Assembly: GCA_030700225.1 (NCBI GenBank) | Contig: JAUYJT010000056.1 | Span: 663 to 64,662, forward strand | Direction: 5' to 3' | Length of the DNA: 64,000 nucleotides | Source: Candidatus Nanopelagicales bacterium | Lineage (GTDB): Bacteria > Actinomycetota > Actinomycetes > S36-B12 > GCA-2699445 | Shown: piece after piece, positions 6,074 through 32,573 of the stretch | How the letters are laid out: each line of letters starts with the position of its first letter | Position numbering within the stretch: position 1 is the stretch's first letter | Made by a program: the position numbers and the translations under genes | Notes under the pieces: model-generated | The model's input: only the letters and a program-made list of their open reading frames with translations | Database searches by the model: none | Told to the model about the DNA's origin: nothing

Positions 6074-6114
6074 CTGTCCTCCTCGCCAATTCTCGAACGC
6101 GGATTGGGCACCGC

Positions 6115-16446: not shown

Positions 16447-17700
16447 TCAGCAACTGACTTGATAGTGCTGACTGCGATACGCCGGAGGCGCGGCTGCCGC
16501 GCGCGAGGTCCCAGCGTAAGCCGCGATGTGATCCGGGTAGCTGATCCAAAGCTCGCCAGTCGGATCGAAGTCGCGTTCGAGAGCCCGCTCCGCGCCGCGC
16601 TGGTCTCGCGTCGCCAGCTTCGCGACCAACCCCAGGTCGGGCGCGGGTTTGACCTCCAAAGCGGAGGCCGCGAACTCCATAGCCGCGCGCCCGGCGTCTG
16701 TCCTGGCGAGCACCGTGGTCCAGCCCGGGTCGCTGCCGATGCTGCCCACGGCGATGTCAGCCGACCGACCGGCGAAGTCAGCGCATTCCGCGCACCCCCG
16801 CAGGGCAGCGCTCCGGATGTCGCGGACCGGCAAGCGCAGGAGCTCTTCGCCGCCCTGTGCCCAGCCGATCATCTCGCCTGCACGCACGTCGATCCGGGCC
16901 AGTCGCGTCACGTCAACACCTGTGGCTGCCAGGGCCTCCGCGAGCTTGTCCCCGTCGAATGACCGCGTGCAGAACAAGGCGACCGTGAGCACCACAGCGT
17001 CCGCGGCGGTCTGGCGGTATCGCCACGGGAAGCGCTGGAGCGCCCGCAACACGCTCACCTGGCATGGCGTTCCAACGAAAGCGAGCCGGTGGACGTCTTC
17101 CGGCAAAGGTGAGTTGAGCTCAACGAGCGCCTGTGATTGCGTATATACACTTCCGGCGCACGCCCGCAGCTCGTCCTCGGTCCGCGCGAGAACGGGATTG
17201 CCGGCGAACACTCCATCCGGCCGGTTGACGATCGCGCCGTCGATGACCTCGTCCTTCAGGAGCTTCGACAGCAGCGCGGTCACGACACCGCCGTCCTGCG
17301 CACTCTCGACTCGAGCCGCGGCCCTGGCCGAGGACGCGTCGAGGACTTCGATCATGCCCGATTCTTGGGCGCTGTCAGCCTGGCCGTCCAAGACGGACGC
17401 GAGTCTCTCGGTGCGAAGCCCTCCCATCGGGCAGTAGTCCCAGCACGCCGAGCATCCCGTGCACATTTGGACCAGCGTCGGGCGACCGTCCTCGCCGACA
17501 TTTATCGAACGCGACGGGCACGCCGCTATGCAGCCGCCACATCTGATGCACCGATCGGCGTCGATCACAGCCGCCGCGGTCCTGTGGAACCAAATCTTCT
17601 CCGGCAGCTCCGGCACGCCACTGGCCGCCGCGATCTCGTCGCGCACATCCGCGGCAGGATCGATGAACGCCGCCGGCGCCGACGTGGCCACCGGGTTCAC
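16447..17700 (-). CDS. FrhB/FdhB-family protein with an N-terminal 2x[4Fe-4S] ferredoxin domain
   Basis: CIRCGGCIAACP and CTGCSACWDYCP cluster motifs followed by FVGTPCQVSVLRAL, a GTPCQ motif typical of F420 hydrogenase/dehydrogenase beta subunits. 4-nt overlap with the upstream reductase. Confidence 0.7.
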   Translation of the reverse strand: MNPVATSAPAAFIDPAADVRDEIAAASGVPELPEKIWFHRTAAAVIDADRCIRCGGCIAACPSRSINVGEDGRPTLVQMCTGCSACWDYCPMGGLRTERLASVLDGQADSAQESGMIEVLDASSARAAARVESAQDGGVVTALLSKLLKDEVIDGAIVNRPDGVFAGNPVLARTEDELRACAGSVYTQSQALVELNSPLPEDVHRLAFVGTPCQVSVLRALQRFPWRYRQTAADAVVLTVALFCTRSFDGDKLAEALAATGVDVTRLARIDVRAGEMIGWAQGGEELLRLPVRDIRSAALRGCAECADFAGRSADIAVGSIGSDPGWTTVLARTDAGRAAMEFAASALEVKPAPDLGLVAKLATRDQRGAERALERDFDPTGELWISYPDHIAAYAGTSRAAAAPPAYRSQHYQVSC

Positions 17701-19292
17701 CTCTGGCTCCCCGATGTCGCGTCAACCCTGTCCAAGACATCACCGAAATCTCGAGCATCCAGTGAGCCCAGGCTGGCTTCGCCGCTGGCGACCTCAACTA
17801 GCGCCGACGTGATCGCGTCGAAGGTCGTGCTCGCTGGCGCTCCCAGACAGGCCCAGCTCCCCAGTCTTCCCGCCCCCGAGTCTCCCCCGACGGCGACGTC
17901 AAAGGCGTCGAATATCTGAGTATCCGTCTTGCCCATCGTCGCCCTCAAGCCGATGTGAGCCAGCGGTATTTGGGCGCACGAGGCCTTGCAGCCAGACATA
18001 TGAATTCGCAGACCCTCCAGACGATCCCATCCCCCGACTGGCACGTTGCGGCGAAGGTGCTCGGTCAGCTGCGTGCCGTAGGTCTTCATCGGCAGGATCG
18101 CGAACTTGCAGAATGGAGCGCTCGTGCATGCCACGACCGCGCGTTCGAACGGATCTGGTTCAGGTCGGAAGCGCTCCAGCAGTGGCTCAGCTAGCAGCCG
18201 AGCCGTGTCGCTAACGCCGGTCAGCACCAGGCTTTGGCGTTGCGTCAGGCGCACGTTGCCATCCCCATGAAGCCGGGCCAGCCGCGAGATCTCGCGCAGG
18301 TCATCAACTCCCACTCGCCCCACTGGCACCGACAGCCCAACGTAGGAAGTCCCGAACTTGTCAGTGTTCACGCCGAGGTGATCGGCGGTTTCCCATGTCG
18401 ACAGATCCTCGCCACGGGGCTCAAGCGACCCGTCGGGCACGCGAGCGCGCAACTCTGAGGCGATGCGCACCGGACCCAGCCGATGGACAAGTGCCCTGAA
18501 ACGATTGACGCTTGAATGCTCGTAGTCGCCTTCGGCTCGGAACAGATCCAGAAGGGCCGCGACAACTTTCGGTGCCACCGCCGGCTCGATGAACATGTCC
18601 AAAGCGGTCGCCAGCCGCGGGTAGTCGGACAGTCCGCCCCCAACGTGGACGCCGAACCCGACGCGGCCCGCGCGCCGAGCCGGGGTGAAGGCGACGCAAT
18701 TCACTCTGGCCACGACGCAATCGGTCGGGCAGCCAGTCACCGCGACCTTGAACTTGCGCGGCAGGAAGGCCGTCAGACGCTCGTCGCTGCCCATCAGAGC
18801 CTCGATGGCTTCAACTACCGGGCCGACTTCGAGCAAACCTCGGCCATCGACCCCATCCACGGCACACGCCGTCACATTGCGCAGGGTGTTGCCACAGGAC
18901 TCGACCGAACCAACGCCTACCGCGCCGAATCGAGCCCATATCTCGGGCAGGTTCTCGAACCGTATCCAATGGATCTGCAGGTCCTGCCGAGTTGTGATCT
19001 CGGCGAAGCGGTCGGGGTCTGAATGTCCCGGCGAGCGCACGCAGAAGTCATTGACGACTCCCACGATCGCATCCAGCTGGTCAGCGTTGAGTCGGCCGCC
19101 GGGGATCCGGACCCTCATCATGAACGTGTCTTTGAAGCGGTCGTCGTAGACGCCGACCATGCGGAGTTTGCCGATGCCAAGGGGGCCACGGTCCGACGGA
19201 TGCAGATCCGCCAATTCTGTCGGGCCTGACCTCAGGATCGCCGCCATCACGTCCGACGGAGCCTGATCTTCAGCGAAGAGTTGTGTTTTCAT
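17697..19292 (-). CDS. Siroheme-type sulfite/nitrite reductase hemoprotein (SirA/NirA-like)
   Basis: Two nitrite/sulfite reductase ferredoxin-like halves with Cys clusters CTSAPFCKFA and MSGCKASCAQ. ATG at 19292 (MKTQLF) chosen. Confidence 0.85.
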   Translation of the reverse strand: MKTQLFAEDQAPSDVMAAILRSGPTELADLHPSDRGPLGIGKLRMVGVYDDRFKDTFMMRVRIPGGRLNADQLDAIVGVVNDFCVRSPGHSDPDRFAEITTRQDLQIHWIRFENLPEIWARFGAVGVGSVESCGNTLRNVTACAVDGVDGRGLLEVGPVVEAIEALMGSDERLTAFLPRKFKVAVTGCPTDCVVARVNCVAFTPARRAGRVGFGVHVGGGLSDYPRLATALDMFIEPAVAPKVVAALLDLFRAEGDYEHSSVNRFRALVHRLGPVRIASELRARVPDGSLEPRGEDLSTWETADHLGVNTDKFGTSYVGLSVPVGRVGVDDLREISRLARLHGDGNVRLTQRQSLVLTGVSDTARLLAEPLLERFRPEPDPFERAVVACTSAPFCKFAILPMKTYGTQLTEHLRRNVPVGGWDRLEGLRIHMSGCKASCAQIPLAHIGLRATMGKTDTQIFDAFDVAVGGDSGAGRLGSWACLGAPASTTFDAITSALVEVASGEASLGSLDARDFGDVLDRVDATSGSQR

Positions 19293-19346
19293 GCCTTGAG
19301 TCCGAGCGAATGGAAGACCCGAGCATAGCAACGCTTGTACGCGGCC

Positions 19347-21131: not shown

Positions 21132-21148
21132 GGATCGACGCCCGCTCA

Positions 21149-21312
21149 AACGTTGAAGCGGAACGATCGCGTGGGGTTTCGGCTGTCGTTGGTCACCGCT
21201 GGGTGATGCCGGAGAACATGGCTTGACCTGCGGAAACGCGTTCACGGGAGCTCGGGCGTCGTCGACGATCGTCGGTCTCGGCTGGACTTCTTGCGGACTA
21301 TTTGCGGACCGC
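21149..21312 (+). repeat. Direct repeat R1: ychF-tail mimic plus ~150-bp arm
   Basis: On the minus strand 21146-21163 reads TTC CGC TTC AAC GTT TGA (FRFNV-stop), the same as the ychF end. The rest aligns by eye along its length with 22995-23156 and ends in TCGGCTGGACTTCTTGCGGACTATTTGCGGACCGC. Confidence 0.8.
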
Positions 21313-21432
21313 AGGATGTCCGGAGCCCCTTCCGCATCTGGTCGAACTCGGCCGCCATGCGTCGACCTCAGAGCCCGAATCTGCGGGCAAACACTCGTAG
21401 CCGGGGCGACAGGGGATCCGCATCGCGACGAT

Positions 21433-21930
21433 TCACAGCTGCGCGCCGTCGAACCTCTCGAAGAACCACCCCGCCTGGTCCGGGACGATCTCCGCCAACT
21501 CGTCGGAGACGTCAAGGTCGTACGCGGCAGCGATCTCACCCACCTGGACGCCAACGAGGGCCCGGAGGCGACCAAGAGCCATTGAGAGCGGATCTGTTCC
21601 CATCGGCCGATAGTGGCGGTCCCAGTCGTCGCCTGCGGAACCCACCTGGTCCATGAACTCGCGGAAGAGACGCTGCAGCAGCTGAACCCGTTGAATCATG
21701 TCCGGGCCAATCTCTGGGTTGTCGAGGTGCACGCCCAGCTGCTTGCGTACGTGATCCGCCGACTGCACGCAATGCTCCTCGATCTCCATCGAGAAGTCCT
21801 TCCAAAGCATGCGTCGGTCGGCCAGCAGGTTGAGCGCCCGTCGCGCAATCTCACGGTCGTCGTCCTTCCGCTCCCATTGCGCTCCGCCGAAGGGTCCAAC
21901 CGATCCGCCGGTGACTCGATATCTGGTCAC
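21433..21930 (-). CDS. Hypothetical protein, second gene of the Ymh-like operon
   Basis: 165 aa from GTG 21930, which overlaps the upstream TGA as GTGA. Predicted helical and acidic; no family recognised. Confidence 0.6.
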   Translation of the reverse strand: MTRYRVTGGSVGPFGGAQWERKDDDREIARRALNLLADRRMLWKDFSMEIEEHCVQSADHVRKQLGVHLDNPEIGPDMIQRVQLLQRLFREFMDQVGSAGDDWDRHYRPMGTDPLSMALGRLRALVGVQVGEIAAAYDLDVSDELAEIVPDQAGWFFERFDGAQL

Positions 21931-22718
21931 AAGCTGACTTCCTCGACGTCGGCCTGGTCTACCCATCGAGCCAACAGGCTGAACGCGGCCAGCTGCTCAA
22001 GAGCCAGTTGCTCCTCGCCACCCGCGCTCTCCTGTGGCTTGTGCATACCGGGGTTCCGAATCGCGGTGTAGAGCCCGTCCGCGAAAGCGCGGGCTCCCCG
22101 ATGGAGATTCTGGTAGGTCTTGCCGCCGTCATCCTCCGCCAGGCGAAGACGAGGTGCTCCTTCCTTAGGCTCGTCAAGCGAGAACGCCTCGTTGAACAAC
22201 GCCGTCTCCGACACGTCCATCCGCCCCAACTTGGCCTGCGTCTCCGCATTGATCCGGATCGCCGCCTGCATGACTGCCTGGTGGCAGTGGCCGGTGTTCC
22301 AGTACGACCTTCCGTTCTCCCACGACCACGGGTGGAGATTGGCAGCGTCCATGTCAGGTGCGTTGTCGCCCAACTTCTCAGCCAACTCCCCCTGACGCTG
22401 GAGCGCAGCCTTGGCACGGGAGGCCTGGTCTCGGAGCCAGTCGAAATCCTCGTCCTTCTTCGGACGCTCGCGCGACCAACCGGGAAGCACGCGGTCGAGA
22501 ATCTGCTCCACAACATGCGCGCGTTGCGACGCCTCGGTTGCCGGGCCACGCATGACGGTTCCGAAGTAGGCGATGCCCGGTCCCATGTCAGGGACGACCT
22601 GTGCCGTCACGCCCAGGAACGCGTCGATCTCACTGATTGCCCACTCGGGATCCAACTTCGCCACGGAGACATCTTGCCGCGATGCGCCGACCGAACGAGT
22701 GTCGGAGGCGCGTGTCAC
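21927..22718 (-). CDS. Protein with a C-terminal TIGR02391/Hypoth_Ymh-like domain
   Basis: C-terminal ~130 aa (LHPWSWENGRSYWNTGHCHQAVMQAAIRINAE ... LHRGARAFADGLYTAIRNPGMH ... EQLAAFSLLARWVD) fit the Ymh pattern as I remember it. N-terminal ~115 aa unassigned. Start uncertain (GTG 22718 or 22664). Confidence 0.65.
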   Translation of the reverse strand: MTRASDTRSVGASRQDVSVAKLDPEWAISEIDAFLGVTAQVVPDMGPGIAYFGTVMRGPATEASQRAHVVEQILDRVLPGWSRERPKKDEDFDWLRDQASRAKAALQRQGELAEKLGDNAPDMDAANLHPWSWENGRSYWNTGHCHQAVMQAAIRINAETQAKLGRMDVSETALFNEAFSLDEPKEGAPRLRLAEDDGGKTYQNLHRGARAFADGLYTAIRNPGMHKPQESAGGEEQLALEQLAAFSLLARWVDQADVEEVSL

Positions 22719-22727
22719 GCTCTCTGC

Positions 22728-22973
22728 ATGAGTAACCGTCGCAAGCCGAAGCGCCGCAACCCCGACCCGGCCTCACGCCGCGCCGAGGCGGAAGCTCTTG
22801 TCGACAAGATCCTTCATGACACGCCGGAAGGTCGAGTAGACCCGGCAATCTCAGAGAACCTGCGGCAACATCTTGCGCGGAACCCCGGCCAGCCCGACCG
22901 CGCTCTGCTCAATCACTTCAAGGACCAGATTCCCGACTTCGACGCGGCGTTCCCGGAGGACCTGGAGAAGTAG
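22728..22973 (+). CDS. Small hypothetical protein with a basic N-terminus (81 aa)
   Basis: ATG-initiated ORF MSNRRKPKRRNPDPASRR..., divergent from the Ymh-like gene. A weak hairpin follows at 22977-22994. No homology recognised. Confidence 0.3.
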   Translation: MSNRRKPKRRNPDPASRRAEAEALVDKILHDTPEGRVDPAISENLRQHLARNPGQPDRALLNHFKDQIPDFDAAFPEDLEK

Positions 22974-22994
22974 CAGGGCGGGGCTCTCACGCCC

Positions 22995-23156
22995 CATTGA
23001 AACGGAACGACCACGCGGGATTTGGCCGTTGGTGGTCATCCTGGGTCGATGCCGAAGAGTGCCGCTTGTCCCGCAGCAACGCACTCTCCGGTCCGTTGAG
23101 CGTCGTTGGCGCCCTTCAGGCTCGGCTGGACTTCTCGCGGACTGCTTGCGGACCGC
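22995..23156 (+). repeat. Direct repeat R2: degenerate ychF-tail mimic plus ~150-bp arm
   Basis: Minus-strand 22987-23007 reads FRFNGA-stop. The arm aligns with R1 and ends in TCGGCTGGACTTCTCGCGGACTGCTTGCGGACCGC. Confidence 0.8.
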
Positions 23157-23162
23157 TGGCAA

Positions 23163-23942
23163 TCAGTCATCGGCTTCCAACTCAAGGATGGCGTTGGCGA
23201 CCTCGGACGGGAAGAGCGTCGACCAGATGATCTCGCCCGAGCCAGGGTTCATCTCAGCGAGTGGCGACGGTTCGGGCTGCCAGTCCTCGGGTGTCACACC
23301 CGGGACACAGTCGAGGAGCAGCGCGAAAATCTGCGGATCGGGAACTCCCTCGGCGATGATCGCGAGGTAGGCCTCATGGCCGTTCTCTGCTCGCACAAGA
23401 GCCTTGATCCGATGGCTGCGGAACTCGGCGACGGCGAGGTGGCCGTTCTTCAAGGACATCGAGACAAGGCGGATGACCATCCGCTTCATCTCACGCCGCC
23501 AAGCAACGGCCTGTTCCGCTGCGAGGCGCTTCCAGTCCCAATCGGCCGGAAGAAGGTGATCTGAGGAGACGGTCTTCCCCGTCGTGCACTCTCGCTGCAG
23601 GGTGGCGTAGAAATCGCGCTGAGGGCTGTCCGCTTGGCGTCGACCAGCCGCTCCGATCCACCACGCCCCTCGGCTCGGGCGCACCCAGTCCGGGAGTTCC
23701 TCGCCGCGAAGCTCTGTGACGGCGGCGCGATGGTCACTGGTCTTGACCTTGAACCAGACGCGGTCGGCGAGCGCAACGACGCGCTCTGCGCCACCGGCAT
23801 CCCGCTGCTCTGGAACGCTCTGAGCGTTAGCCACGACCGGGTGATCGATCTCTTCCAACCGGATCCCGAGGTCCGGCAGACCAGCCGCAAGGTCACCGAG
23901 GCAGCGCTTCGTCGGACGCACGCCGATCGGTTCCGAGACCAT
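23163..23942 (-). CDS. Hypothetical 259-aa protein downstream of an RHH gene (candidate toxin/effector)
   Basis: Clean ORF 47 nt downstream of the RHH gene. The segment RVWFKVKTSDHRAAV...AWWIGAAGRRQADSPQRDFY loosely resembles the RelE/ParE beta-sheet pattern. C-terminal ~140 aa unassigned. Confidence 0.6.
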   Translation of the reverse strand: MVSEPIGVRPTKRCLGDLAAGLPDLGIRLEEIDHPVVANAQSVPEQRDAGGAERVVALADRVWFKVKTSDHRAAVTELRGEELPDWVRPSRGAWWIGAAGRRQADSPQRDFYATLQRECTTGKTVSSDHLLPADWDWKRLAAEQAVAWRREMKRMVIRLVSMSLKNGHLAVAEFRSHRIKALVRAENGHEAYLAIIAEGVPDPQIFALLLDCVPGVTPEDWQPEPSPLAEMNPGSGEIIWSTLFPSEVANAILELEADD

Positions 23943-23989
23943 GGCGCGAATCTAGCGGCCAGGTCCGACGGTCAGCGGGCCGTCATGGG

Positions 23990-24250
23990 CTACTTCGGCA
24001 GCCCGCCGAGGTCATCGAGCTCTTCGGCGCTGAGGCCGGTCATAAGCGACACAGCAGCAGCTTCGGTGCCTTTGAGCTGACCGAGCGCAGCCTTGACGCC
24101 AGCGTTGATCTCATCGCGGTGTGCGTCGATGTACTCGCGCACGGCGGCATCGACGATGTCCTTCTTCGAGCGGGACATGAAGTGAGCTGCGTGCGACACA
24201 AGCTCGTCAGTCGCGGCGTCGACCTTGATCGGCGCAGTAGCGGTAGCCAT
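23990..24250 (-). CDS. Ribbon-helix-helix (CopG/ParD-like) DNA-binding protein, antitoxin-like
   Basis: 86 aa from ATG 24250, preceded by AAGGAGGG. The N-terminus PIKVDAATDELVSHAAHFMSRSKKDIVDAAVREYI fits the beta-alpha-alpha RHH pattern. Confidence 0.65.
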   Translation of the reverse strand: MATATAPIKVDAATDELVSHAAHFMSRSKKDIVDAAVREYIDAHRDEINAGVKAALGQLKGTEAAAVSLMTGLSAEELDDLGGLPK

Positions 24251-24269
24251 AGCGCTGCCCTCCTTCTCG

Positions 24270-24283
24270 GGTACCAAAGTACC
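24270..24283. promoter_or_regulatory. Palindrome GGTACCAAAGTACC upstream of the RHH gene (candidate operator)
   Basis: Perfect 5+5 inverted repeat with a 4-nt spacer, 20-33 nt upstream of the RHH start on the minus strand. Confidence 0.35.
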
Positions 24284-24313
24284 AGTATCTACCGTCATGG
24301 CAAATCCGCGTGG

Positions 24314-25381
24314 ATGGTTATGCGTCCGGCCGCACGTCGCCGATCCGCCTGTGGGCGCCAGTGCACGCCGATAACCTCAGAGGCACCATGGGTTACCGGG
24401 GACGACGACGCCAACCGCCTTGCCGCCCAAGCGCGCGCCCGCGTGCTCATCGACCGGCAGCTCGCCGAGGCGGGCTGGTCGGCGCAGGACCTTAAGTACG
24501 TCGTCCTGTTCCGCCCGATCGGCTCGATGGTCGAGTTCAAGCAGATCGTCGGGCGAGGGTCACGTCTCTACCCCGAGAACGACAAGTACTCCTTCGAGAT
24601 CGTGGACTACGTCGGCGCTTCGGTCCTTTTCTCCGATCCAGGCTTCGACGGTGAGCCGGTGCGCATACGGACCGAGCGCATCGACGAGTCCGGCGAGATC
24701 GTCGAAGACGAACTCGGGGACGTTGCCCCCGAGATGCCGTCGCTTGGCGAACCCGAGCCCCCCTTCGACCGAACCCAGTCCGAAGGAGAGCTCGAACAGC
24801 CGTCGGCGAGGAAGCATTACGTCGACGGCACAGAGGTCACTGTGACTGCCGAGGCGTACTACGTCGCTGACACGAGTACCGGCGCTCTCCGCCTCGTGGA
24901 ATACACGGACTACCTGGCCGGCCAGGTGCGCGTGCTGTGTCCGACCATCGATGACCTTCGCGCACGCTGGGCCGATCCTCAGCTACGTGCGGTCTTGGAG
25001 GAGGGCCTCGCCTCGCGCGGCGTGTCCATCGAAGAGATGTCGAGGCGCCTCGAACTTGCGCCCGACACGGACCCCTTCGACGTCCTCGCACACGCCGCCT
25101 GGAACGTTCCTCAACGGACGAGGGCGGAACGCGCTCGGCTGGTGCGCGAAGACCACGCGAGCGACCTCAAGGCGCTGGTGCCGACCGCGCGCGAGATCAT
25201 CTCCGCCCTCCTCGACCGCTACGAGGAGTACGGCGTCGAGGAGATGACCCACATCTACGCCTTCCAGGTGCCGCCGCTGAGCAACTTCGGCTCACCCGTC
25301 GAAGCGGCACAACACTTCGGCGGCGCTGAAGGCTGGCGCCAAGCCGTCAGCGAGCTCCAAGGTTGGCTGTACTCAGCGTGA
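24314..25381 (+). pseudogene. hsdR: Type I restriction enzyme R subunit remnant (in-frame internal deletion)
   Basis: HsdR-like N-terminal motif ARARVLIDRQLAEAGW is joined directly to helicase motif VI (FKQIVGRGSRL) and an EcoEI_R_C-like C-terminus (DPFDVLAHAAWNVPQRTRAERA). Nuclease and DEAD-box motifs I-V are absent. Confidence 0.7.
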
Positions 25382-25435: not shown

Positions 25436-26047
25436 ATGCGCTATGCTTGGCCCATGGCCGGCACTCGACAGGATCTGCGGCTGGCGCTCCAACGCCTTGC
25501 CTTCAGCCAGGCTGGCTACTTCACCGCCGCCGAGGCTCTCGACCTCGGGTACAGCTATCAGGCACAGAAGTACCACGCCGATAGTGGCAACTGGCTGCGA
25601 GTCGACCGTGGTCTGTTCCGACTTCCCGACTGGCCCTCCGCTCCCGAGGACCAGTGGGTGCGCTGGACCCTATGGAGCGAGGGCCGTGGCGTCGTGTCCC
25701 ACGACTCGGCCGCGCTCGTCCACGACCTCGGCGAGCTCGATCCCCGCCACGTGCACCTGTCCGTTCCCCCCGGATTCCGGGCCGTGGATCCGGCGGTGGT
25801 CACGCATGTGTACGATCTGCCTGCCGCGGACGTTCTCGACCGCGGCGCCTGGCGGGTGACTACGCCGCTGCGCACACTGCTCGATCTCGCGGGTGGCGAC
25901 ACCACGCAGGAGCAACTCGAGGCTGCGGTCGCCGCCACGCTGGAGCGGGGCCTGACGACCGCGCGCCGGATCCGCACTCGCTCGGACGAGGCCGGAGACC
26001 GGGCGGCGCTCCGCATCGAGCGGGCGCTCAAGGCAACGACGACATGA
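25436..26047 (+). CDS. Type IV toxin-antitoxin system AbiEi family antitoxin
   Basis: 203 aa with an AbiEi-like wHTH N-terminus (LAFSQAGYFTAAEALDLGYS) and an ATGA overlap with the downstream nucleotidyltransferase. Preceded by the only low-GC patch in this region (25381-25435). Confidence 0.75.
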   Translation: MRYAWPMAGTRQDLRLALQRLAFSQAGYFTAAEALDLGYSYQAQKYHADSGNWLRVDRGLFRLPDWPSAPEDQWVRWTLWSEGRGVVSHDSAALVHDLGELDPRHVHLSVPPGFRAVDPAVVTHVYDLPAADVLDRGAWRVTTPLRTLLDLAGGDTTQEQLEAAVAATLERGLTTARRIRTRSDEAGDRAALRIERALKATTT

Positions 26048-26898
26048 CCGACAACCAGGCGCTCAGAACCAGCATCGAGCAACGGCTCGCCAATCTGGCG
26101 GCCGAGCGACAAGTCTCGCTCGATCGGTTGCGCCGCCACTTCGTTTTCCAGCGGATCCTGGTTCGACTGTCCGCGGACGACAACTGGGTACTCAAAGGCG
26201 GCTTCGCCCTCGAGGTCAGGCTCGGCCTCGACGCCCGGGCGACCAAGGATCTGGATCTGGCCATGCTGGAGGACCTCGACGGCGTCGAGGCGCAGGATCG
26301 TCTGCTCGATGCTCTCGACGTCGACGCCGGTGACGGATTGACCTTCCAGGTGTCCGCACCGCGAGCGATCGCCTCGGACGATGCCGGAAACCCCGGCTGG
26401 AGGTTCACCGTCACATCGGTCCTAGGCGGCAAGGTCTTCGCATCGCTGCGCCTCGACGTCGTCGCGCGGAGCGCGGAGATCGTCGGCGCCATCGGCACCA
26501 TCGAGGTACGCCCGCCGATCCTCGCGGAACTCCTGAGCAGCACCGCGATGCCGACGGTGGACATCGCCCAGCACGCCGCGGAGAAGTTCCACGCGATGGC
26601 CCGGACGTACGCCGGAGATCGACCCAGCAGCCGCGTCAAGGACTTGGTCGACGTCGTACTCCTCGTGGAAGCGGGGCTGCTGCCGAATCCGGACCTGCCC
26701 GGTCGGCTTCAAACGGTCTGGCAGGTGCGGGACGGCGTGCCGCCACCGGCACAGCTCCCCGATTTCCCGGCGTCGTGGCCCAGCGACTTCGCCGCAATGG
26801 CCGCTGAACTCGATCTGGCCGTCGACTACCCCACCGCCCGCTCCACCGCCGAACGACTCTTCGCCGAGGCGGTCACCACCGAGGAGAACCAATCGTGA
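26044..26898 (+). CDS. AbiEii/AbiGii nucleotidyltransferase toxin (DUF1814)
   Basis: VLKGGFALEVRLGLDARATKDLDL nucleotidyltransferase motif. 284 aa. Its stop overlaps the hsdM GTG as GTGA. Confidence 0.8.
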   Translation: MTDNQALRTSIEQRLANLAAERQVSLDRLRRHFVFQRILVRLSADDNWVLKGGFALEVRLGLDARATKDLDLAMLEDLDGVEAQDRLLDALDVDAGDGLTFQVSAPRAIASDDAGNPGWRFTVTSVLGGKVFASLRLDVVARSAEIVGAIGTIEVRPPILAELLSSTAMPTVDIAQHAAEKFHAMARTYAGDRPSSRVKDLVDVVLLVEAGLLPNPDLPGRLQTVWQVRDGVPPPAQLPDFPASWPSDFAAMAAELDLAVDYPTARSTAERLFAEAVTTEENQS

Positions 26899-28391
26899 GC
26901 CGTGCCGCCAAGAGCGTTGCCCAGACCCCGCAGGCGCGTCTCGCGTCGGTCATCAAGACCAGTCGGGACATCATGCGCAAGGACGCCGGCCTCAACGGCG
27001 ACCTGGACCGGCTTCCTCAACTGTCCTGGCTCCTCTTCCTCAAGGCCTTCGACGACCTCGAGCGGAACAGGATGATCGTCGACCCCAGCTACCGGCCAGC
27101 ACTGCCGGAGGAGCTCCGATGGAGCGTGTGGGCGGCAGATCCGACCAAGCGCAAGCAGGGTGACGCCCTCATCAACTGGGTCAACGGAACCCTGCTCCCG
27201 GGGCTTGGCCGACTGAAGGGATCCGGCCGGGCGGGCGACCCTCGCACCACGCTCGCCACGGTCTTCAAAGAGACCAACAACCGAATGCTGTCCGGCTACC
27301 TGCTCGGTGACCTGATCGACCAGATCGACAAGGTGCACTTCACGTCGGCCGACGACATCCACACCATGGCCCATCTGTACGAGTCGATGCTGCGCGAAAT
27401 GCGGGACGCAGCCGGAGACTCGGGCGAGTTCTACACACCCCGGCCGGTGATCCGGCTCATGGTCGAGCAGGTCAATCCGCGCTTGGGCGAGACGGTGCTG
27501 GACCCGGCTGTCGGCACAGGCGGATTCCTGGTCGAGGCATACGAGCACCTCCGCGCCCAGGCGCGGTCCGCGACCGAGATCGCGACGGCGAAACGCTCGA
27601 TCAGCGGCTTCGAGAAGAAGCCACTCCCCTACCTGCTCTGCCAGATGAACCTGCTCCTGCACGAAGTGGAACAGCCCAACGTCACCCGCATGAACTCGCT
27701 GACCTTCTCGTTGGCTGACCAGCGCAAGGCCGGCGTCGACGTCGTTCTGACCAACCCGCCGTTCGGGGGTGAGGAGGAGAGCAGCAGCCTGGGGAACTTC
27801 CCTGCCGACTCGCGGACGGCAGAGACCGCCTGGCTGTTTCTCCAGGTGGTGATGGCGCGCCTGGAGAAGAGGAAGGGCCGCTGCGGGATCGTCGTCCCCA
27901 ACGGGGTCCTCTTCGCCAACGAGGGCGCGCCGGCACGGATCAAGAAGAAGCTGCTCACCGACTTCAACCTGCACTCTGTGGTGCGGCTGCCCAACGGCGT
28001 CTTCGCTCCGTACACCCTCATCCCCTCCAACCTGCTCTTCTTCGAATACGGCGGGCCAACGAAGGACATCTGGTTCTACGAGCAGCCCCTGCCGGAGGGG
28101 CGGAAGAACTACACGAAGACAAGACCGCTGCGTTTCGAGGAATTCGCCGATGTCCAGGCATGGTGGGGTGGCACGGATCGAGTCGGCCGAGTCGAGAACG
28201 AGCACGCGTGGAAGGTCGACGCCGCCACACTCGCGGAGGACGGCTACAACCTGGATCTCCGCAACCCGCATCGTGCCGACGATCTGACGCATCGCTCGCC
28301 CGAGGAACTCGTCAAGGAACTGATTGCCGTGGAGGAGCAGATCCTCGCAGCCCTTCAGGACCTCCAGTCCAACCTCGGGAACGACGCCTGA
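26895..28391 (+). CDS. hsdM: Type I restriction-modification system methyltransferase subunit
   Basis: N6-adenine MTase motif IV NPPFGG, SAM motif VLDPAVGTGGFL, and an HsdM N-terminal domain. Confidence 0.9.
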   Translation: MSRAAKSVAQTPQARLASVIKTSRDIMRKDAGLNGDLDRLPQLSWLLFLKAFDDLERNRMIVDPSYRPALPEELRWSVWAADPTKRKQGDALINWVNGTLLPGLGRLKGSGRAGDPRTTLATVFKETNNRMLSGYLLGDLIDQIDKVHFTSADDIHTMAHLYESMLREMRDAAGDSGEFYTPRPVIRLMVEQVNPRLGETVLDPAVGTGGFLVEAYEHLRAQARSATEIATAKRSISGFEKKPLPYLLCQMNLLLHEVEQPNVTRMNSLTFSLADQRKAGVDVVLTNPPFGGEEESSSLGNFPADSRTAETAWLFLQVVMARLEKRKGRCGIVVPNGVLFANEGAPARIKKKLLTDFNLHSVVRLPNGVFAPYTLIPSNLLFFEYGGPTKDIWFYEQPLPEGRKNYTKTRPLRFEEFADVQAWWGGTDRVGRVENEHAWKVDAATLAEDGYNLDLRNPHRADDLTHRSPEELVKELIAVEEQILAALQDLQSNLGNDA

Positions 28392-29512
28392 TGGCGGTGC
28401 GGCAGGTGCGAGTAGGGGACATCCTCTCGCTTCACCGCGTTCCCGTTCAGATTGACGAGGCAGATAGCTACAGGCAAATCGGCCTCTACTCCTGGGGCAA
28501 AGGGTTCATCCATCGACCTTCGTGTCTCGGCTTCGAACTCAGCAAGCTTCGTTACTTTCAGATCCCAGCCGGCGCTCTCGTTCTCAGCAGCATCCAGGCA
28601 TGGGAGGCGGCCATCGCCGTATCGACCAACGCTGAAGCTGAATTCATCGGGTCGAACCGGTTCCTTAGCTATGTACCGCGCACCGACGACGTGGACGTGC
28701 GCTACTTACTGCACTACTTCCTCTCCGAACCTGGTCTCCACCAGATCAAGCAGGCTTCGCCGGGAACGCAGGTACGAAACCGAACGCTGGGGCAGCAACT
28801 CTTCGAGCGCCTAGCAATTCCCCTGCCCGACGTCACCGAGCAGCAGTGCATTGCCGCACGCCTCGACCGAATCGTGGCAATCTCGACGTCGTTCGGCGAA
28901 CCTCCGACCGCGGCCCTTCGAGACAACTTCCTCGATAGGGTCTCGCAGAGATCACGGATCGGGCACATCATCACGCTTGCTCGACACCCTGTGAGCGTCA
29001 AAGCGAGCGAGGCCTACCCGAACCTCGGCATCCTCAACCGGGCCCGTGGTGTGTTCGCCAAGCCGCCGATGCTGGGTTTAGGGACGAAGTACTCGACCTT
29101 GTATCGGGTGCGCGCCGGACAGTTGATCTATTCGAAACTGTTCGGCCGGGAGGGATCGCTCGCCATCGTGCCCGAGTGGGCGGACGGGTGGTTCGTCTCC
29201 AGCGAGTTCCCCACGTTCGACGTGAACACCGACGCAGTAGATCTCGACTACTTCGGCCAGGTGTTGCGCTGGCGCGGTCTCGCGGAACAGCTGGCCGCCG
29301 CGACGTCAGGGATGGGTCAGCGGCGACAGCGCGTGCAGATCGACCAGTTCGAGGCGCTCGAGGTCCCGTTGCCAGACCTCCCGACCCAACGCCACATCGG
29401 CGCCGATCTCCTCCGACTCGCCGCAGTCGAGGGCCTGGTGGCCCACAGGGCAACGCTGTCGGCCGGCCTACTTCCTGCCGCTCGGAATCAAGCGTTCGCC
29501 AGCCTCACCTGA
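28391..29512 (+). CDS. hsdS: Type I restriction-modification system specificity subunit
   Basis: ATG overlaps the hsdM TGA (TGATG). 373 aa with two target-recognition-like halves separated by a helical spacer (LPLPDVTEQQCIAARLDRI and LPLPDLPTQRHIGADLLRL). Confidence 0.8.
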   Translation: MAVRQVRVGDILSLHRVPVQIDEADSYRQIGLYSWGKGFIHRPSCLGFELSKLRYFQIPAGALVLSSIQAWEAAIAVSTNAEAEFIGSNRFLSYVPRTDDVDVRYLLHYFLSEPGLHQIKQASPGTQVRNRTLGQQLFERLAIPLPDVTEQQCIAARLDRIVAISTSFGEPPTAALRDNFLDRVSQRSRIGHIITLARHPVSVKASEAYPNLGILNRARGVFAKPPMLGLGTKYSTLYRVRAGQLIYSKLFGREGSLAIVPEWADGWFVSSEFPTFDVNTDAVDLDYFGQVLRWRGLAEQLAAATSGMGQRRQRVQIDQFEALEVPLPDLPTQRHIGADLLRLAAVEGLVAHRATLSAGLLPAARNQAFASLT

Positions 29513-30161
29513 CGCTGCGCCATGAACTTCCCGCGATTACTACGTGGTCAAGGAACCGGAGTCCGGCCGCATCGGCGGCCCGGCCTACGGCGCCAGTGGC
29601 CTCACGGTCGTAGATGCTTGGGGTCGGATCTCCAGAAGGATGATTGTGCGCGAGGGCGAACGCTCGACCGTCGTACCGCAGCACGGCGTGCAGCACCTCT
29701 CGGACAGGCAACGGACTCGAGTCCAGGCCTCCAGTTGCAACGGGTACAAGGCGAAGCACGCGGTTGGCGGCGTCGGCCACCAGGACCACGACCTTCTCCC
29801 GCCGTTCGCGGGCGAGCACCGGGGCGACCAGCTCAGCGATCGCGGCTGCGGAGTCCACGACACGGTTGGCCGGTGAAGCTGTAGCCCGAGCCGCTAGTTC
29901 GAATGCGGCTGTTAGGCGCACTGCCTCTGCGGGGCCGATGCTTGATGACCGCATCAGCTCCTCAGGAAACGCGGCTGCCAGGCCACTCAGTCCTCCGCAC
30001 TCGTCGATCAGTTTCCGACCCACCGCAACCTCGTCGCATCCCTGTGGTGCTACGGCGGCTACCAGGGCAACAAGCTCGGCGTCGCTGAGCGCGCCAGGTC
30101 CCAGACTCAGGAGACGCTCGCGGGGCTGGTCGCCGGCGAACAGCCGCGACGTGATCGACAT
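29505..30161 (-). CDS. radC: RadC-like JAB/MPN domain protein
   Basis: JAMM motif LAHNHPSGDPTPS and an N-terminal HhH-like region. Converges on hsdS with an 8-nt overlap. Confidence 0.8.
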   Translation of the reverse strand: MSITSRLFAGDQPRERLLSLGPGALSDAELVALVAAVAPQGCDEVAVGRKLIDECGGLSGLAAAFPEELMRSSSIGPAEAVRLTAAFELAARATASPANRVVDSAAAIAELVAPVLARERREKVVVLVADAANRVLRLVPVATGGLDSSPLPVREVLHAVLRYDGRAFALAHNHPSGDPTPSIYDREATGAVGRAADAAGLRFLDHVVIAGSSWRSVR

Positions 30162-30231
30162 CCCGCAACGCTAGGTCGCAGAGCCGACGAGCACTATCGC
30201 GCCCGAGACACCTGTGGAAAGGCTAGCTTCG

Positions 30232-30570
30232 TCAGCCCTTGAAGATGCAGGTCGGATCGTTGTCGTACTCGGCCAGCAGCCGCTCGATCGGCTGATCCGG
30301 CTCGAGAAGGTCGTAGGCATGGGCTCGGGAGTTCCGATCGAACCAGTACAGGGTCCAGCCCTTCGTTTGCTCGTCGTACTTCATCCGAGCCTGCGGAGTG
30401 TCGGTCCACTCCGGGCCTAGCGCCGGATTCCACGGCGGCCGATGCTCGACGATCGTCACGGTGCGACCGCGCACGCGGTGCTCCACACGCACCTGTTCCC
30501 GCATCTCGGGCGGGACCTGCGTCTCGCAGAACCGCCGGATCCGCGCGAGATCGGTCTCTGGGACGGCCAT
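30232..30570 (-). CDS. DUF3024-like protein
   Basis: 112 aa from the internal ATG (MAVPETDLARIRRFCE...VTIVEHRPPW...GWTLYWFDRNSRAH), a pattern I associate with DUF3024. Confidence 0.6.
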   Translation of the reverse strand: MAVPETDLARIRRFCETQVPPEMREQVRVEHRVRGRTVTIVEHRPPWNPALGPEWTDTPQARMKYDEQTKGWTLYWFDRNSRAHAYDLLEPDQPIERLLAEYDNDPTCIFKG

Positions 30571-30784
30571 GGGCTCAGTATCTGATGAGTATCGCCGGGG
30601 CCGCCATCCGCGTCCCACCCTTCCCGCTCTCGTGCCCCTCACTGACTACCGCCGACTCCTCACCGTCGCGAGAATCTCTCCCACGTCGCACCCGCCTTCG
30701 CCCTCAACCCCTTTGAGTGGCACCCATCAGACAGAACCCGCGAACCTTGCCGATTGGTCGGCCCTGGCTGCAAAGATCGATGTC

Positions 30785-31696: not shown

Positions 31697-31698
31697 CC

Positions 31699-31842
31699 AT
31701 GGCTGGCATCCAGCACCTGTCCATGCGCGCGCCATGGCGCGACCGACCGTGGGACCAGTTCCTCTGCGACGACCCGCTCGGCAACTCCTCATGCACTCTC
31801 CTCGCGGCGATCGGCAAACGTCGTGACGACGACACTGGTGAG
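31699..31842 (+). pseudogene. N-terminal stub (~48 codons) of a larger gene coupled to the GIY-YIG gene
   Basis: ATG lies 2 nt after the GIY-YIG stop. MAGIQHLSMRAPWRDRPWDQFLCDDPLGNSSCTLLAAIGKRRDDD looks like a genuine conserved N-terminus, but after ~31842 the frame runs antisense through another gene. Confidence 0.45.
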
Positions 31843-31989
31843 GAGCGGCAATTGATTCAGGCGCTCCTCGGCCTGCCGGAGGAACGACGCCGCACGCGCG
31901 ACGTCTGCGGGCACGACATCGAGACGTCCCGCCTCGACCAGCGCGAGCACGGTCGCCTGCTGGACGCGGGTGAGCGGGGTCAGCGCCAC
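31789..31989 (-). pseudogene. Truncated partner gene of the wHTH-nucleotidyltransferase (possible HEPN-type toxin remnant)
   Basis: GTG 31989 overlaps the upstream stop by 10 nt. About 49 plausible codons (VALTPLTRVQQATVLALVEAGRLDV...RLNQLPLLTS) are followed by junk read-through to the stop at 31789. Confidence 0.4.
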
Positions 31990-32564: not shown

Positions 32565-32573
32565 ATAACTGAG
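32553..32573. promoter_or_regulatory. 7-bp inverted repeat CTCAGTT-N7-AACTGAG spanning the start codon of the wHTH-NTase gene
   Basis: Perfect inverted repeat in a low-GC patch. Candidate autoregulatory operator or 5-prime hairpin. Confidence 0.35.

What the first reader, a model, noticed from the sequence alone, without database searches (positions are those of the whole stretch)
21433..22718. Two-gene operon: Ymh/TIGR02391-like protein coupled to an unknown 165-aa protein (candidate uncharacterised defence pair)
The upstream gene has an unassigned ~115-aa N-terminal region fused to a C-terminal domain that matches my memory of the TIGR02391/Hypoth_Ymh domain. That domain recurs next to R-M and abortive-infection genes, and its function is unresolved. 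Its TGA overlaps the GTG of the second gene (GTGA), implying stoichiometric co-expression. The second gene encodes an acidic helical protein (REIARRALNLLADRRMLWKDFSMEIEEHCVQSADHVRKQL...) that I cannot place in a named family. The pair is the sole cargo of the repeat-bracketed cassette and sits inside a defence island. It is a good candidate for an undescribed two-component immunity or toxin-antitoxin-like system.
Basis: partly seen in the sequence, partly recalled or inferred. Interest (0 to 1): 0.75.

Follow-up and report, generated by a model that had tools for sequence, protein, structure and literature searches.

The report
HEPN RNase gene coupled to DUF6650
Two overlapping genes in a bacterial anti-phage island encode a predicted RNA-cutting enzyme and a member of a protein family recently shown to be a Thoeris immunity effector. 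The genes are real and co-expressed, but this pairing is a rare, recent combination rather than a conserved two-part system.

Summary
The two genes exist on the minus strand. Gene B (21433-21930, 165 aa) overlaps it by GTGA.

Gene B is not unplaceable. It is a full-length DUF6650 (PF20355) protein, the family of ThsG, the 2'cADPR-activated effector of type VI Thoeris. No TIR gene lies in the island.

Both genes are under purifying selection (dN/dS about 0.1). They sit in a defence island next to ychF that also holds Type I R-M with a truncated hsdR and AbiE.

The pair is not conserved as a unit. Among about 55 loci carrying this DUF6650 clade, only one near-identical contig has the Ymh gene. 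Close Ymh homologues (80-89%) are solo on plasmids and ICEs, or embedded in Type I R-M operons.

DUF6650 does recur directly downstream of other nuclease-like genes: a second HEPN-like protein and a NucC-like nuclease. Elsewhere it follows non-nuclease genes or stands alone.

Best reading (about 0.4): a recently assembled HEPN effector plus DUF6650 sensor/regulator module. Nearly as likely: two autonomous defence genes stacked in one transcript.

The parts
21927..22664 (-). Gene A: 245-aa protein with an orphan N-terminal domain (about 108 aa) and a C-terminal Ymh-family HEPN domain.
   Evidence: ORF list. Pfam PF09509 E 2.8e-22. Homologues are 241-245 aa and start at the equivalent of V19. 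An independent gene call gives 245 aa on identical contigs. GC3 is 0.78. dN/dS is 0.09 against L011. AF2 pLDDT is 84.
21960..22340 (-). Ymh (PF09509) HEPN domain of gene A.
   Evidence: Pfam match to aa 127-253 of the 263-aa translation, profile positions 2-119 of 119. Weak PADLOC matches to Aga_HEPN (3.6e-6) and PD-Lambda-3_B (1.4e-4) cover the same stretch. The HEPN assignment of Ymh comes from PMC3710099.
22041..22058 (-). RNPGMH, the Rx4H motif that is the predicted HEPN RNase catalytic site.
   Evidence: Translation checked. R203, N204, G206 and H208 are invariant in 81 homologues.
22341..22664 (-). N-terminal domain of gene A (about 108 aa, alpha/beta). It matches no family and is the candidate sensor or regulatory domain.
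   Evidence: No Pfam hit at E<=10. An N-terminal-domain-only search recovered only fragments and a few stand-alone proteins of 110-130 aa, with no other fusions. AF2 is confident over this region, with block pLDDT of 80-95. The domain is conserved in plasmid homologues down to 33-45% identity at full length.
21433..21930 (-). Gene B: 165-aa DUF6650 (PF20355) protein of the ThsG family. It is acidic and forms a helical bundle.
   Evidence: Pfam 31.4 bits against a cutoff of 27. 163 homologues were found, and the 120 listed are all annotated PF20355. 541 family representatives align over residues 5-152. The family-wide conserved R39, R40, S57, R62, R90, R123, G127 and P150 are retained. phrog_29952 E 1.3e-13. 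The GTG start is confirmed by homologue alignment. dN/dS is 0.11. AF2 pLDDT is 76.
21927..21930 (-). GTGA stop/start overlap between A and B (translational coupling). A GAGGAAG ribosome-binding site lies at 21938-21944, inside the end of A.
   Evidence: Sequence read directly. The same overlap is kept in L011 despite 12.5% nucleotide divergence.
22728..22973 (+). Divergent 81-codon ORF with a basic N-terminus and no family match. It shares the 63-nt intergenic (presumably promoter) region with gene A.
   Evidence: Coding-like GC1/2/3 of 0.73/0.41/0.76. It is conserved in L011 at 89-94% aa identity but with a frameshift. It is called as an 81-aa gene on identical contigs. No Pfam, NCBIfam, PADLOC or PHROG hit.
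21256..21315 (.). Left copy of the 60-nt imperfect direct repeat, 117 nt 3' of gene B. The core on the minus strand is CAGCGGTCCGCAAnnAGTCCGCrAGAAGTCCAGCCGAG, with GTCCGC units phased at 11 nt.
   Evidence: the repeat finder D1. The core occurs twice against 0 expected. Alignment with copies in L011 and L025.
23100..23159 (.). Right copy of the direct repeat, 3 nt 3' of the 259-aa gene.
   Evidence: TRF finds an 11-nt period with 2.7 copies at 23128-23157. No tRNA or Rfam match.

Best explanation
The locus is a co-transcribed, translationally coupled two-gene anti-phage module. It was assembled recently from two portable parts.

Gene A is a Ymh-family HEPN protein. An N-terminal domain of unknown fold is joined to a HEPN domain with an intact R-N-x-G-x-H site, so it is predicted to be a latent RNase.

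Gene B is a DUF6650 protein. This is the family of ThsG, which in type VI Thoeris binds the nucleotide signal 2'cADPR and is modelled as a homo-hexameric ring.

Proposed mechanism (inferred, not shown): B acts as the trigger-sensing or regulatory oligomer. On sensing a nucleotide-type signal or an infection cue, it licenses the A RNase. A then cleaves cellular or phage RNA and aborts the infection.

Shown here: family memberships, the intact catalytic and family-conserved residues, the coupling, purifying selection on both genes, defence-island and mobile-element context, and the recurrence of DUF6650 directly 3' of other nuclease-type genes.

Inferred: that A and B interact physically or functionally, which of them is sensor and which is effector, and what the trigger is.
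For: - A is in the Ymh HEPN family and its Rx4H motif is invariant (PMC3710099).
- B is a full-length DUF6650 protein with the family-wide conserved Arg/Ser positions.
- DUF6650 is ThsG, a 2'cADPR-responsive effector modelled as a hexamer (bioRxiv 10.64898/2025.12.03.692087).
- The GTGA overlap and internal RBS are retained in L011 despite dS of 0.19-0.31, and both genes have dN/dS of about 0.1.
- B has no promoter space of its own.
- Independent loci place 72-85%-identical DUF6650 genes immediately 3' of other nuclease-type genes:
  - L012/13: a 181-aa protein with an 8-nt overlap, an RNLAAH motif, and sub-threshold HepT/DUF4145/HepT_toxin hits (E 4e-4 to 7e-4).
  - L001/2/20: a DUF6602 protein matching the PADLOC NucC-like effector (E 1e-18) and PD_DExK (E 8e-30), 22 nt upstream.
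  - L068: a 143-aa protein with an RDVGEH motif, overlapping.
- DefensePredictor DS-27 is reported as a SMEK nuclease-type domain fused to a DUF6650-like C-terminus, on HHpred evidence only.
- Context is a defence island (Type I R-M, AbiE) at a ychF-adjacent hotspot that holds DUF6650 or Ymh genes in other genomes.
Against: - The pairing is found only in the window's own strain (L072/L073) and one close relative (L011).
- About 55 other DUF6650-clade loci lack Ymh.
- Every examined close or plasmid Ymh homologue lacks DUF6650.
- Many DUF6650 genes look monocistronic with their own RBS, or follow non-nuclease genes such as DUF6262, a 92-aa protein or tyrosine recombinases. Nuclease neighbours could therefore simply reflect defence-island and MGE crowding.
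- No physical-interaction evidence could be obtained, because no multimer modelling was available.
- Neither AF2 model had a significant PDB match.
- The DS-27 DUF6650 assignment was not reproduced with HMMER.
- Both proteins are acidic, so there is no obvious charge complementarity.
Confidence: 0.4

Rival explanations
1. The two genes are autonomous single-gene defence or MGE-maintenance modules that island shuffling placed in one transcription unit. On this view A is a self-contained sensor-plus-HEPN Abi-type protein, or a PrrC-like guard of the neighbouring Type I R-M. B is an 'orphan' ThsG-type protein that responds to a signal made elsewhere, for example by a TIR protein encoded in another locus. 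They do not need each other.
For: - Each gene is abundant without the other. Ymh homologues at 80-89% identity are solo next to IS110/TrwC, in a Tad/T4SS conjugative element, and on Rothia, Streptomyces and Curtobacterium plasmids.
- A 44.5%-identical full-length homologue sits between hsdS and hsdR with overlapping stops and starts in Rhodococcus pDF03, the PrrC position.
- DUF6650 is solo between an MmeI-type R-M plus a Schlafen-like gene and a methylase, beside a Type ISP enzyme, and next to a Tn3 transposase.
- Homology between DUF6650 loci begins exactly at the start codon, as expected for a freely recombining cassette.
Against: - Independent systems in islands normally keep their own promoters. 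Here B overlaps A by 4 nt and depends on A's transcript, and this arrangement has persisted under purifying selection.
- The same tight 5' coupling recurs with three other enzyme-like partners.
- The Type I R-M next door has lost about 1.5 kb of hsdR, so a PrrC-like guard role is not obviously functional here.
Confidence: 0.35
2. The pair is a toxin-antitoxin system. A is a HEPN RNase toxin, and B is a protein antitoxin that neutralises it until B is degraded or displaced during infection.
For: - HEPN RNases are toxins in HepT/MntA and other TA systems (established knowledge; PMC3710099).
- The genes overlap and are co-expressed.
- B has a weak sub-threshold hit to CbeA antitoxin (E 0.019).
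- B also follows another HEPN-like gene in L012.
Against: - Near-identical A homologues exist in many genomes and plasmids with no B or any conserved neighbour, so A is evidently not lethal alone.
- B occurs alone or with non-toxin neighbours.
- B has no DNA-binding or nucleotidyltransferase domain.
- Both proteins are acidic.
- In Thoeris VI the DUF6650 protein is the growth-arresting component, not a neutraliser.
Confidence: 0.1
3. The roles are reversed. B (ThsG-like) is the growth-arresting effector, and A takes the place of the TIR protein as the infection sensor. A would either generate the activating ligand or switch it off. It could generate it as 2',3'-cyclic-phosphate RNA products. 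It could switch it off as a HEPN ring-nuclease-like activity.
For: - In type VI Thoeris the partner 5' of, or next to, DUF6650 is the signal-producing sensor, and DUF6650 is the effector.
- A carries an extra N-terminal domain that could sense infection.
Against: - No HEPN protein is known to synthesise a second messenger (established knowledge).
- Nothing in the sequence was found that bears on this.
- The other DUF6650 partners found here, NucC-like and HEPN-like, are classical effectors rather than sensors.
Confidence: 0.07

Closest known systems
Type VI Thoeris (ThsB TIR + ThsG DUF6650), bioRxiv 10.64898/2025.12.03.692087
   Same: Gene B belongs to the same Pfam family (PF20355) as ThsG. 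It is a single-domain protein of about 160 aa, it retains the family-wide conserved residues, and it lies in a defence island.
   Different: No TIR gene is adjacent or anywhere in the island. The partner is a HEPN protein instead. None of the roughly 55 related actinobacterial loci showed a TIR neighbour in the annotations available. Ligand binding and hexamer formation were not tested for this clade.
Ymh/TIGR02391 HEPN family, including PD-lambda-3 component B and Ymh genes embedded in R-M operons (Anantharaman et al. 2013, PMC3710099)
   Same: Gene A has the PF09509 domain with a conserved Rx4H motif. It lies beside a Type I R-M system. A full-length homologue sits between hsdS and hsdR in Rhodococcus pDF03, and the HEPN domain gives a weak match to PD-Lambda-3_B.
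   Different: PD-lambda-3 pairs the Ymh protein with a PD-(D/E)XK nuclease and is reported only in Proteobacteria, whereas here the partner is DUF6650. Gene A is not inside the hsd operon: it is on the opposite strand, 1.7 kb from a truncated hsdR. Its N-terminal domain did not match Pfam's AbiJ N-terminal-domain models, nor any AbiTii or paraMORC model Pfam may hold.
PrrC/RloC-type anticodon nucleases guarding Type I R-M
   Same: This is a HEPN-superfamily nuclease genetically linked to Type I R-M. The Rhodococcus homologue occupies the same hsdS-X-hsdR slot as prrC (PrrC biology from established knowledge and PMC3710099).
   Different: Gene A has no ABC-ATPase N-terminal domain. It is not embedded in the operon in this window, the hsdR here is truncated, and there is an extra DUF6650 partner.
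HepT/MntA (HEPN-MNT) type VII toxin-antitoxin systems
   Same: Both are two small overlapping genes, one of which is a HEPN RNase.
   Different: The partner is not a nucleotidyltransferase. The pair is not conserved, and the HEPN gene is frequently solo.
DefensePredictor DS-27 (SMEK-domain protein with an HHpred DUF6650-like C-terminus), PMC13092281
   Same: It is an experimentally validated defence gene in which a nuclease-type domain is joined to a DUF6650-like region. This is the same logic as nuclease plus DUF6650 encoded as two genes.
   Different: DS-27 is a fusion, not an operon, and its nuclease is SMEK rather than HEPN. Its DUF6650 similarity is remote: HMMER against Pfam finds only SMEK_N, and a profile built from gene B's relatives does not detect it.

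Membership tests
Pfam DUF6650 (PF20355) / ThsG family (gene B) | Sequence match to the family model above the curated threshold, over the whole domain. | tested here: met
   31.4 bits against a gathering score of 27. That direct hit covers profile positions 3-97 only. However, B aligns over residues 5-152 with 541 representatives, whose members hit PF20355 at positions 4-146 of 150. NCBI names homologues 'DUF6650 family protein'.
Type VI Thoeris system | A TIR-domain ThsB gene in the same operon as the DUF6650 gene. | tested here: not met
   The upstream partner is Ymh/HEPN. No TIR hit appears in any scanned ORF from 14.7 to 37.5 kb of the window (the ORF at 17697-19331 and minor ORFs were not scanned).
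Type VI Thoeris system | The DUF6650 protein binds 2'cADPR, forms a hexamer and causes growth arrest. | not testable with these tools
   Only a monomer AF2 model was possible. Conserved basic residues are retained, but that is not a test of binding.
Ymh / Hypoth_Ymh HEPN family (gene A) | PF09509 domain above threshold, with the conserved Rx4-6H motif. | tested here: met
   79.3 bits against a cutoff of 25. RNPGMH is present, and R, N and H are invariant in 81 homologues.
NCBIfam TIGR02391 | Score above the curated cutoff of 39.45 bits. | tested here: not met
   30.1 bits for the 263-aa translation. NCBI nevertheless labels 80-89%-identical proteins 'TIGR02391 family protein'.
HEPN RNase (functional class) | Metal-independent RNase activity dependent on the Rx4-6H dyad. 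| not testable with these tools
   This is inferred from the family assignment in PMC3710099. Foldseek against the PDB gave no significant hit for the full-length model.
PD-lambda-3 | A PD-(D/E)XK nuclease component A next to a Ymh component B. | tested here: not met
   Gene B has no PADLOC hit. Gene A matches PD-Lambda-3_B only weakly (E 1.4e-4), and only in the HEPN domain. Composition of the system.
HepT/MntA type VII TA | A minimal nucleotidyltransferase antitoxin adjacent to the HEPN toxin. | tested here: not met
   Gene B has no NTP_transf hit. The only NTP_transf_2 protein, at 31980-32837, is 9 kb away.
Generic type II toxin-antitoxin pair | The two genes are conserved as a unit, and the toxin is not found without a cognate antitoxin. 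| tested here: not met
   The pair occurs only in the window's own strain and L011. Both genes are widely solo.
PrrC-like R-M-embedded anticodon nuclease | The gene is embedded within the hsd operon, and an N-terminal ABC-type NTPase is fused to the HEPN domain. | tested here: not met
   Gene A is on the opposite strand from hsdR/M/S and has no ATPase domain. The embedding criterion is met by the Rhodococcus pDF03 homologue.

The most novel reading that the evidence does not exclude
DUF6650 may be a portable, ligand- or trigger-sensing ring module that plugs into interchangeable nucleases. The candidates seen are Ymh HEPN here, a second HEPN-like protein in L012, a NucC-like PD-(D/E)XK nuclease in Austwickia, and perhaps SMEK in DS-27.

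On this reading the window pair is a TIR-less offshoot of Thoeris-type signalling, in which DUF6650 licenses an RNase. That would also suggest how transmembrane-less ThsG proteins exert toxicity, namely through a partner nuclease. The Thoeris VI preprint states this question is open.
Probability: 0.2. Interest if true: 0.7.

Novelty: new variant of a known kind. Interest (0 to 1): 0.45.

Why it matters
DUF6650 was linked to immunity only in 2025-26, as ThsG of type VI Thoeris and, by remote similarity, in DS-27. How it stops growth is unknown when it lacks membrane helices.

This window shows a full-length DUF6650 gene with no TIR partner, translationally coupled to a HEPN RNase. Related loci couple the same clade to other nuclease-type genes.

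If the coupling is functional, it gives a tractable two-gene model for what DUF6650 does. It would also extend Thoeris-type receptors beyond TIR signalling.

If it is not functional, the locus is still a clear example of how defence islands at the ychF hotspot stack and recombine single-gene modules at exact ORF boundaries.

Tried and rejected
- Foldseek of both AF2 models against the PDB, and of B against BFVD, gave no match with E<=0.001.
- Profile searches of PDB sequences found nothing meaningful.
- hhalign of the Ymh profile against the L012 181-aa partner showed no relation. The same was true for the DUF6650 profile against DS-27. The profiles were shallow (Neff 1.6-2.2).
- An HMM built from 113 DUF6650 representatives does not detect DS-27, and Pfam finds only SMEK_N in it. 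The DS-27 link therefore rests on the paper's HHpred result alone.
- A search with gene A's N-terminal domain alone returned only fragments and short stand-alone copies, with no new domain fusions.
- Neither gene has relatives in IMG/VR contigs or INPHARED phages by tblastn, although B matches phrog_29952.
- No tRNA or Rfam family explains the flanking repeats. RNA folding of the repeats is unremarkable (z between -1.9 and +1.2). I therefore do not interpret them as att sites or attC-like elements.
- No remnant of the recurrent 218-aa DUF6650 partner is present in the window.
- The consensus promoter/terminator scan was uninformative for this high-GC DNA.
Full report
**What is there**

The finding's coordinates hold two minus-strand ORFs.
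- The upstream ORF runs 21927-22718 from the first GTG. About 120 homologues are 241-245 aa and align from its residue 19. An independent gene call on contigs carrying the identical protein gives 245 aa. The real gene A is therefore most likely 21927-22664.
- Gene B is 21433-21930 (165 aa). Its GTG start matches the M[TV]RYR start of its homologues.
- The TGA of A and the GTG of B overlap as GTGA. A GAGGAAG ribosome-binding site lies 7 nt upstream, inside A.
- Both genes have coding-type composition, with GC3 of 0.78.
- Against the only diverged copy of the pair (L011, 87% nucleotide identity), dN/dS is 0.09 for A and 0.11 for B. Both are real, selected genes.

**Gene A**

- Pfam places residues 127-253 of the 263-aa translation in Hypoth_Ymh PF09509 (E 2.8e-22).
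- NCBIfam TIGR02391 scores just below its cutoff (30.1 against 39.45), though NCBI names near-identical proteins TIGR02391.
- Anantharaman et al. 2013 assigned Ymh to the HEPN RNase superfamily. They noted solo forms, fusions and R-M operon contexts (PMC3710099).
- The RNPGMH motif (22041-22058) is present, and R, N, G and H are invariant in 81 homologues.
- PADLOC gives only weak HEPN-domain matches, to Aga_HEPN and PD-Lambda-3_B.
- The N-terminal domain of about 108 aa matches no family. An N-terminal-domain-only search found no other architectures.
- AF2 models two confident domains (pLDDT 84), but Foldseek against the PDB found nothing significant.

**Gene B**

It passes the Pfam DUF6650 (PF20355) threshold.
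- All 120 listed homologues carry that annotation.
- An exhaustive HMMER search finds 541 cluster representatives. Most are single-domain proteins of 150-180 aa that align across residues 5-152. Sampled distant ones hit PF20355 end to end.
- B keeps the family-wide conserved residues R39, R40, S57, R62, R90, R123, G127 and P150.
- AF2 gives a helical bundle (pLDDT 76) with no significant PDB or viral structural neighbour.
[quoted passage not shown] There, TIR proteins make 2'cADPR on infection, and 2'cADPR arrests growth of cells carrying the system.
- ThsG is modelled as a hexameric tube with basic pockets. The authors state that it is unclear how ThsG proteins without membrane helices act (bioRxiv 10.64898/2025.12.03.692087).
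- DefensePredictor also lists DUF6650 among newly defence-implicated domains, through DS-27, a SMEK-domain protein (PMC13092281). I could not reproduce that DUF6650 assignment with HMMER.

**Context**

The pair lies in a defence island that runs from about 21145 to ychF (32976-34055). The left boundary falls just after a methyltransferase gene, where synteny with L011 ends. The island contains:
- a divergent 81-codon ORF;
- an RHH/RelB-like 86-102-aa gene plus a 259-aa unknown;
- a Type I hsdR reduced to its C-terminal third (PADLOC REase_I profile positions 488-800 of 807);
- AbiEi/AbiEii, hsdM and hsdS;
- RadC, a DUF4357 protein and a MarR-nucleotidyltransferase protein.

No TIR gene is present.

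The ychF-adjacent position is a hotspot. In two MAGs a DUF6650 gene sits right after ychF. In Arthrobacter koreensis a Ymh gene lies a few kb from lytB-ychF.

The 60-nt direct repeats are real. However, they also enclose the 81-codon ORF, and synteny with L011 continues beyond both copies. The 'cassette' reading is therefore unproven.

**Is the pair a conserved unit? No.**

- Contigs with the identical protein A (L072, L073) are the same sequence as the window.
- The only diverged instance is L011 (A 96% and B 93% aa identity).
- Seventeen species-representative genomes and 27 metagenome contigs carrying this DUF6650 clade have no Ymh gene nearby. Three further look-ups gave the same result.
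- Conversely, Ymh homologues of 80-89% identity are solo. They lie beside IS110/TrwC in Nocardioides, in Arthrobacter, and in a Tad/T4SS conjugative element seen in hundreds of contigs.
- The family is common on actinobacterial plasmids (49 records). It is solo in Rothia, Streptomyces and Curtobacterium.
- In Rhodococcus pDF03 it is embedded with overlapping stops and starts between hsdS and hsdR, the slot PrrC occupies in the prr locus.

It also argues strongly against an obligate toxin-antitoxin relationship.

**What does recur**

Nucleotide homology among DUF6650 loci begins exactly at the start codon, and the upstream sequences are unrelated. The immediate 5' neighbour varies:

| Locus | 5' neighbour of DUF6650 |
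|---|---|
| Window, L011 | Ymh HEPN (GTGA overlap) |
| L012/13 | 181-aa protein, 8-nt overlap, N-terminal hydrophobic segment, RNLAAH motif, three sub-threshold HEPN-model hits (HepT-like, DUF4145, HepT_toxin; E 4e-4 to 7e-4) |
| Austwickia (L001/2/20) | DUF6602 protein matching PADLOC NucC-like effector (1e-18) and PD_DExK (8e-30), inside a Tn7-like element |
| L068 | 143-aa protein with RDVGEH, overlapping |
| Micropruina and others | DUF6262, after a tyrosine recombinase |
| L026, L061-63 | 92-aa protein in a plasmid-like region |
| Various | None; own RBS, for example between an MmeI-type R-M and a methylase |

On the 3' side, a 218-aa protein overlaps the DUF6650 stop in L014, L015, L017, L032 and Nocardioides plasmid pNOCA01. 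It stays 77-81% identical, while the DUF6650 genes it follows are 84%, 77% and only 32% identical to gene B. That is better evidence for a conserved partnership than anything seen for Ymh. No remnant of it exists in the window.

**Interpretation**

Two readings are close.

(i) Cooperation (about 0.4). DUF6650 is a sensing or regulatory oligomer that is repeatedly hitched to nuclease effectors, and here it controls the Ymh RNase. Supporting points:
- tight coupling preserved under selection;
- B's lack of its own promoter;
- the recurrence of HEPN-like and NucC-like partners;
- TIR or SMEK partners in published systems.

(ii) Independence (about 0.35). These are two autonomous defence genes stacked by island recombination. 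Supporting points:
- the overwhelming separate occurrence of each gene;
- many solo DUF6650 genes;
- non-nuclease neighbours.

Toxin-antitoxin (about 0.1) and reversed-role (about 0.07) models are less likely.

None of these can be settled computationally with the tools available. Multimer modelling, ligand binding and genetics are needed.

**Novelty**

Both components belong to known defence-linked families. The combination matches nothing in PADLOC-DB v2, and it is not among the named systems I compared it with: Thoeris VI, PD-lambda-3, HepT/MntA, PrrC and DS-27.

The searchable literature mentions DUF6650 in only three papers, none with a HEPN partner.

I rate it a new variant of known kinds, of moderate interest. 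It is lowered by the lack of pair conservation. It is raised by what a TIR-less, nuclease-coupled DUF6650 could reveal about how ThsG-type proteins work.

Noticed in passing
window 21256-21315 and 23100-23159; L011 2480-2504; L025 4229-4253: The 60-nt direct repeats contain a small palindrome (GCGGTCCGC) followed by GTCCGC(A/G)A units phased at 11 nt, which looks like a protein-binding array. Each copy lies just 3' of a minus-strand gene. Copies also occur in L011 and in an unrelated Nocardioidaceae MAG contig (L025), 3.5 kb from a truncated DUF6650 gene. There is no tRNA or Rfam match, and the function is unknown.
   Followed up: partly
window 24320-25381 (hsdR remnant), 25454-26898 (abiEi/abiEii), 26895-29512 (hsdM, hsdS): The Type I R-M system has an hsdR reduced to its C-terminal third or so (PADLOC REase_I profile positions 488-800 of 807). 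The 5' part appears to have been replaced by the 21145-24300 block. An AbiE pair sits between hsdR and hsdM. Restriction is probably lost while methylation may persist.
   Followed up: partly
window 23990-24298 (-) and 23163-23942 (-): A small protein gives weak RelB, VapB and Rv0623-like antitoxin hits (E 0.006-0.05). It is followed on the same strand by a 259-aa protein with no family match, which is 91% conserved in L011. This is a possible uncharacterised toxin-antitoxin-like pair.
   Followed up: partly
L014/L015 5492-6148, L017 5492-6211, L032 532-1179, L058 (Nocardioides JS614 pNOCA01) 5473-6129: A 218-239-aa protein with no family match, and with a conserved RQ[IV]VEAH motif, overlaps the stop codon of DUF6650 genes. 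It stays 77-81% identical, while the DUF6650 genes it follows are 84%, 77% and only 32% identical to gene B. This is a better candidate for a conserved DUF6650 two-gene system than the Ymh pairing.
   Followed up: partly
L012/L013 1069-1614: A 181-aa protein overlaps the DUF6650 start by 8 nt. It has an N-terminal hydrophobic (membrane-like) segment, an RNLAAH motif, and sub-threshold HepT/DUF4145 hits. It is a probable second, unrelated HEPN partner of DUF6650.
   Followed up: partly
L001/L002/L020 (Austwickia MAG) 7103-9876 of L001: The order is DUF6602 (NucC-like/PD-DExK by PADLOC), then DUF6650, then DUF5677 with an RARTMH motif. The three are carried as cargo of a Tn7-like element (TnsA-like, TniB, TniQ).
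   Followed up: partly
L069 (Rhodococcus sp. p52 plasmid pDF03) 337-7824: A full-length Ymh homologue (44.5% identical) is embedded between hsdS and hsdR, with 4-nt overlaps on both sides. This is the same slot as PrrC in the E. coli prr locus. A TIR-domain gene lies about 900 nt downstream of hsdR, after an SprT-family gene.
   Followed up: no
window 32976-34055 (ychF); L015 3558-5495; L006 170-6732: The region next to ychF (and lytB) seems to be a recurrent integration and defence hotspot in Actinobacteria. It holds the whole island here, a DUF6650 gene in two MAGs, and a Ymh gene in Arthrobacter koreensis.
   Followed up: partly
L017 and L018 (same Micropruina contig JADJTM010000001.1, about 20 kb apart); L059 (Paraburkholderia pOLGA3): Two paralogous clusters of tyrosine recombinase, DUF6262 and DUF6650 lie on one contig, each with a different 3' partner. 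In a proteobacterial plasmid, a DUF6650 gene overlaps a tyrosine recombinase gene. DUF6650 is often integrase-adjacent cargo.
   Followed up: no
window 29505-32837: The rest of the island holds a RadC-like JAB protein, a 432-aa DUF4357 protein, and a 285-aa MarR/IclR-HTH plus NTP_transf_2 protein. The last is of the MNT-antitoxin type and has no adjacent HEPN gene.
   Followed up: no
window 22728-22973 (+): An 81-aa ORF with a very basic N-terminus (MSNRRKPKRRNP...) is divergent from gene A. It is conserved in L011 but frameshifted there, matches no family, and may be a regulator of the pair.
   Followed up: partly
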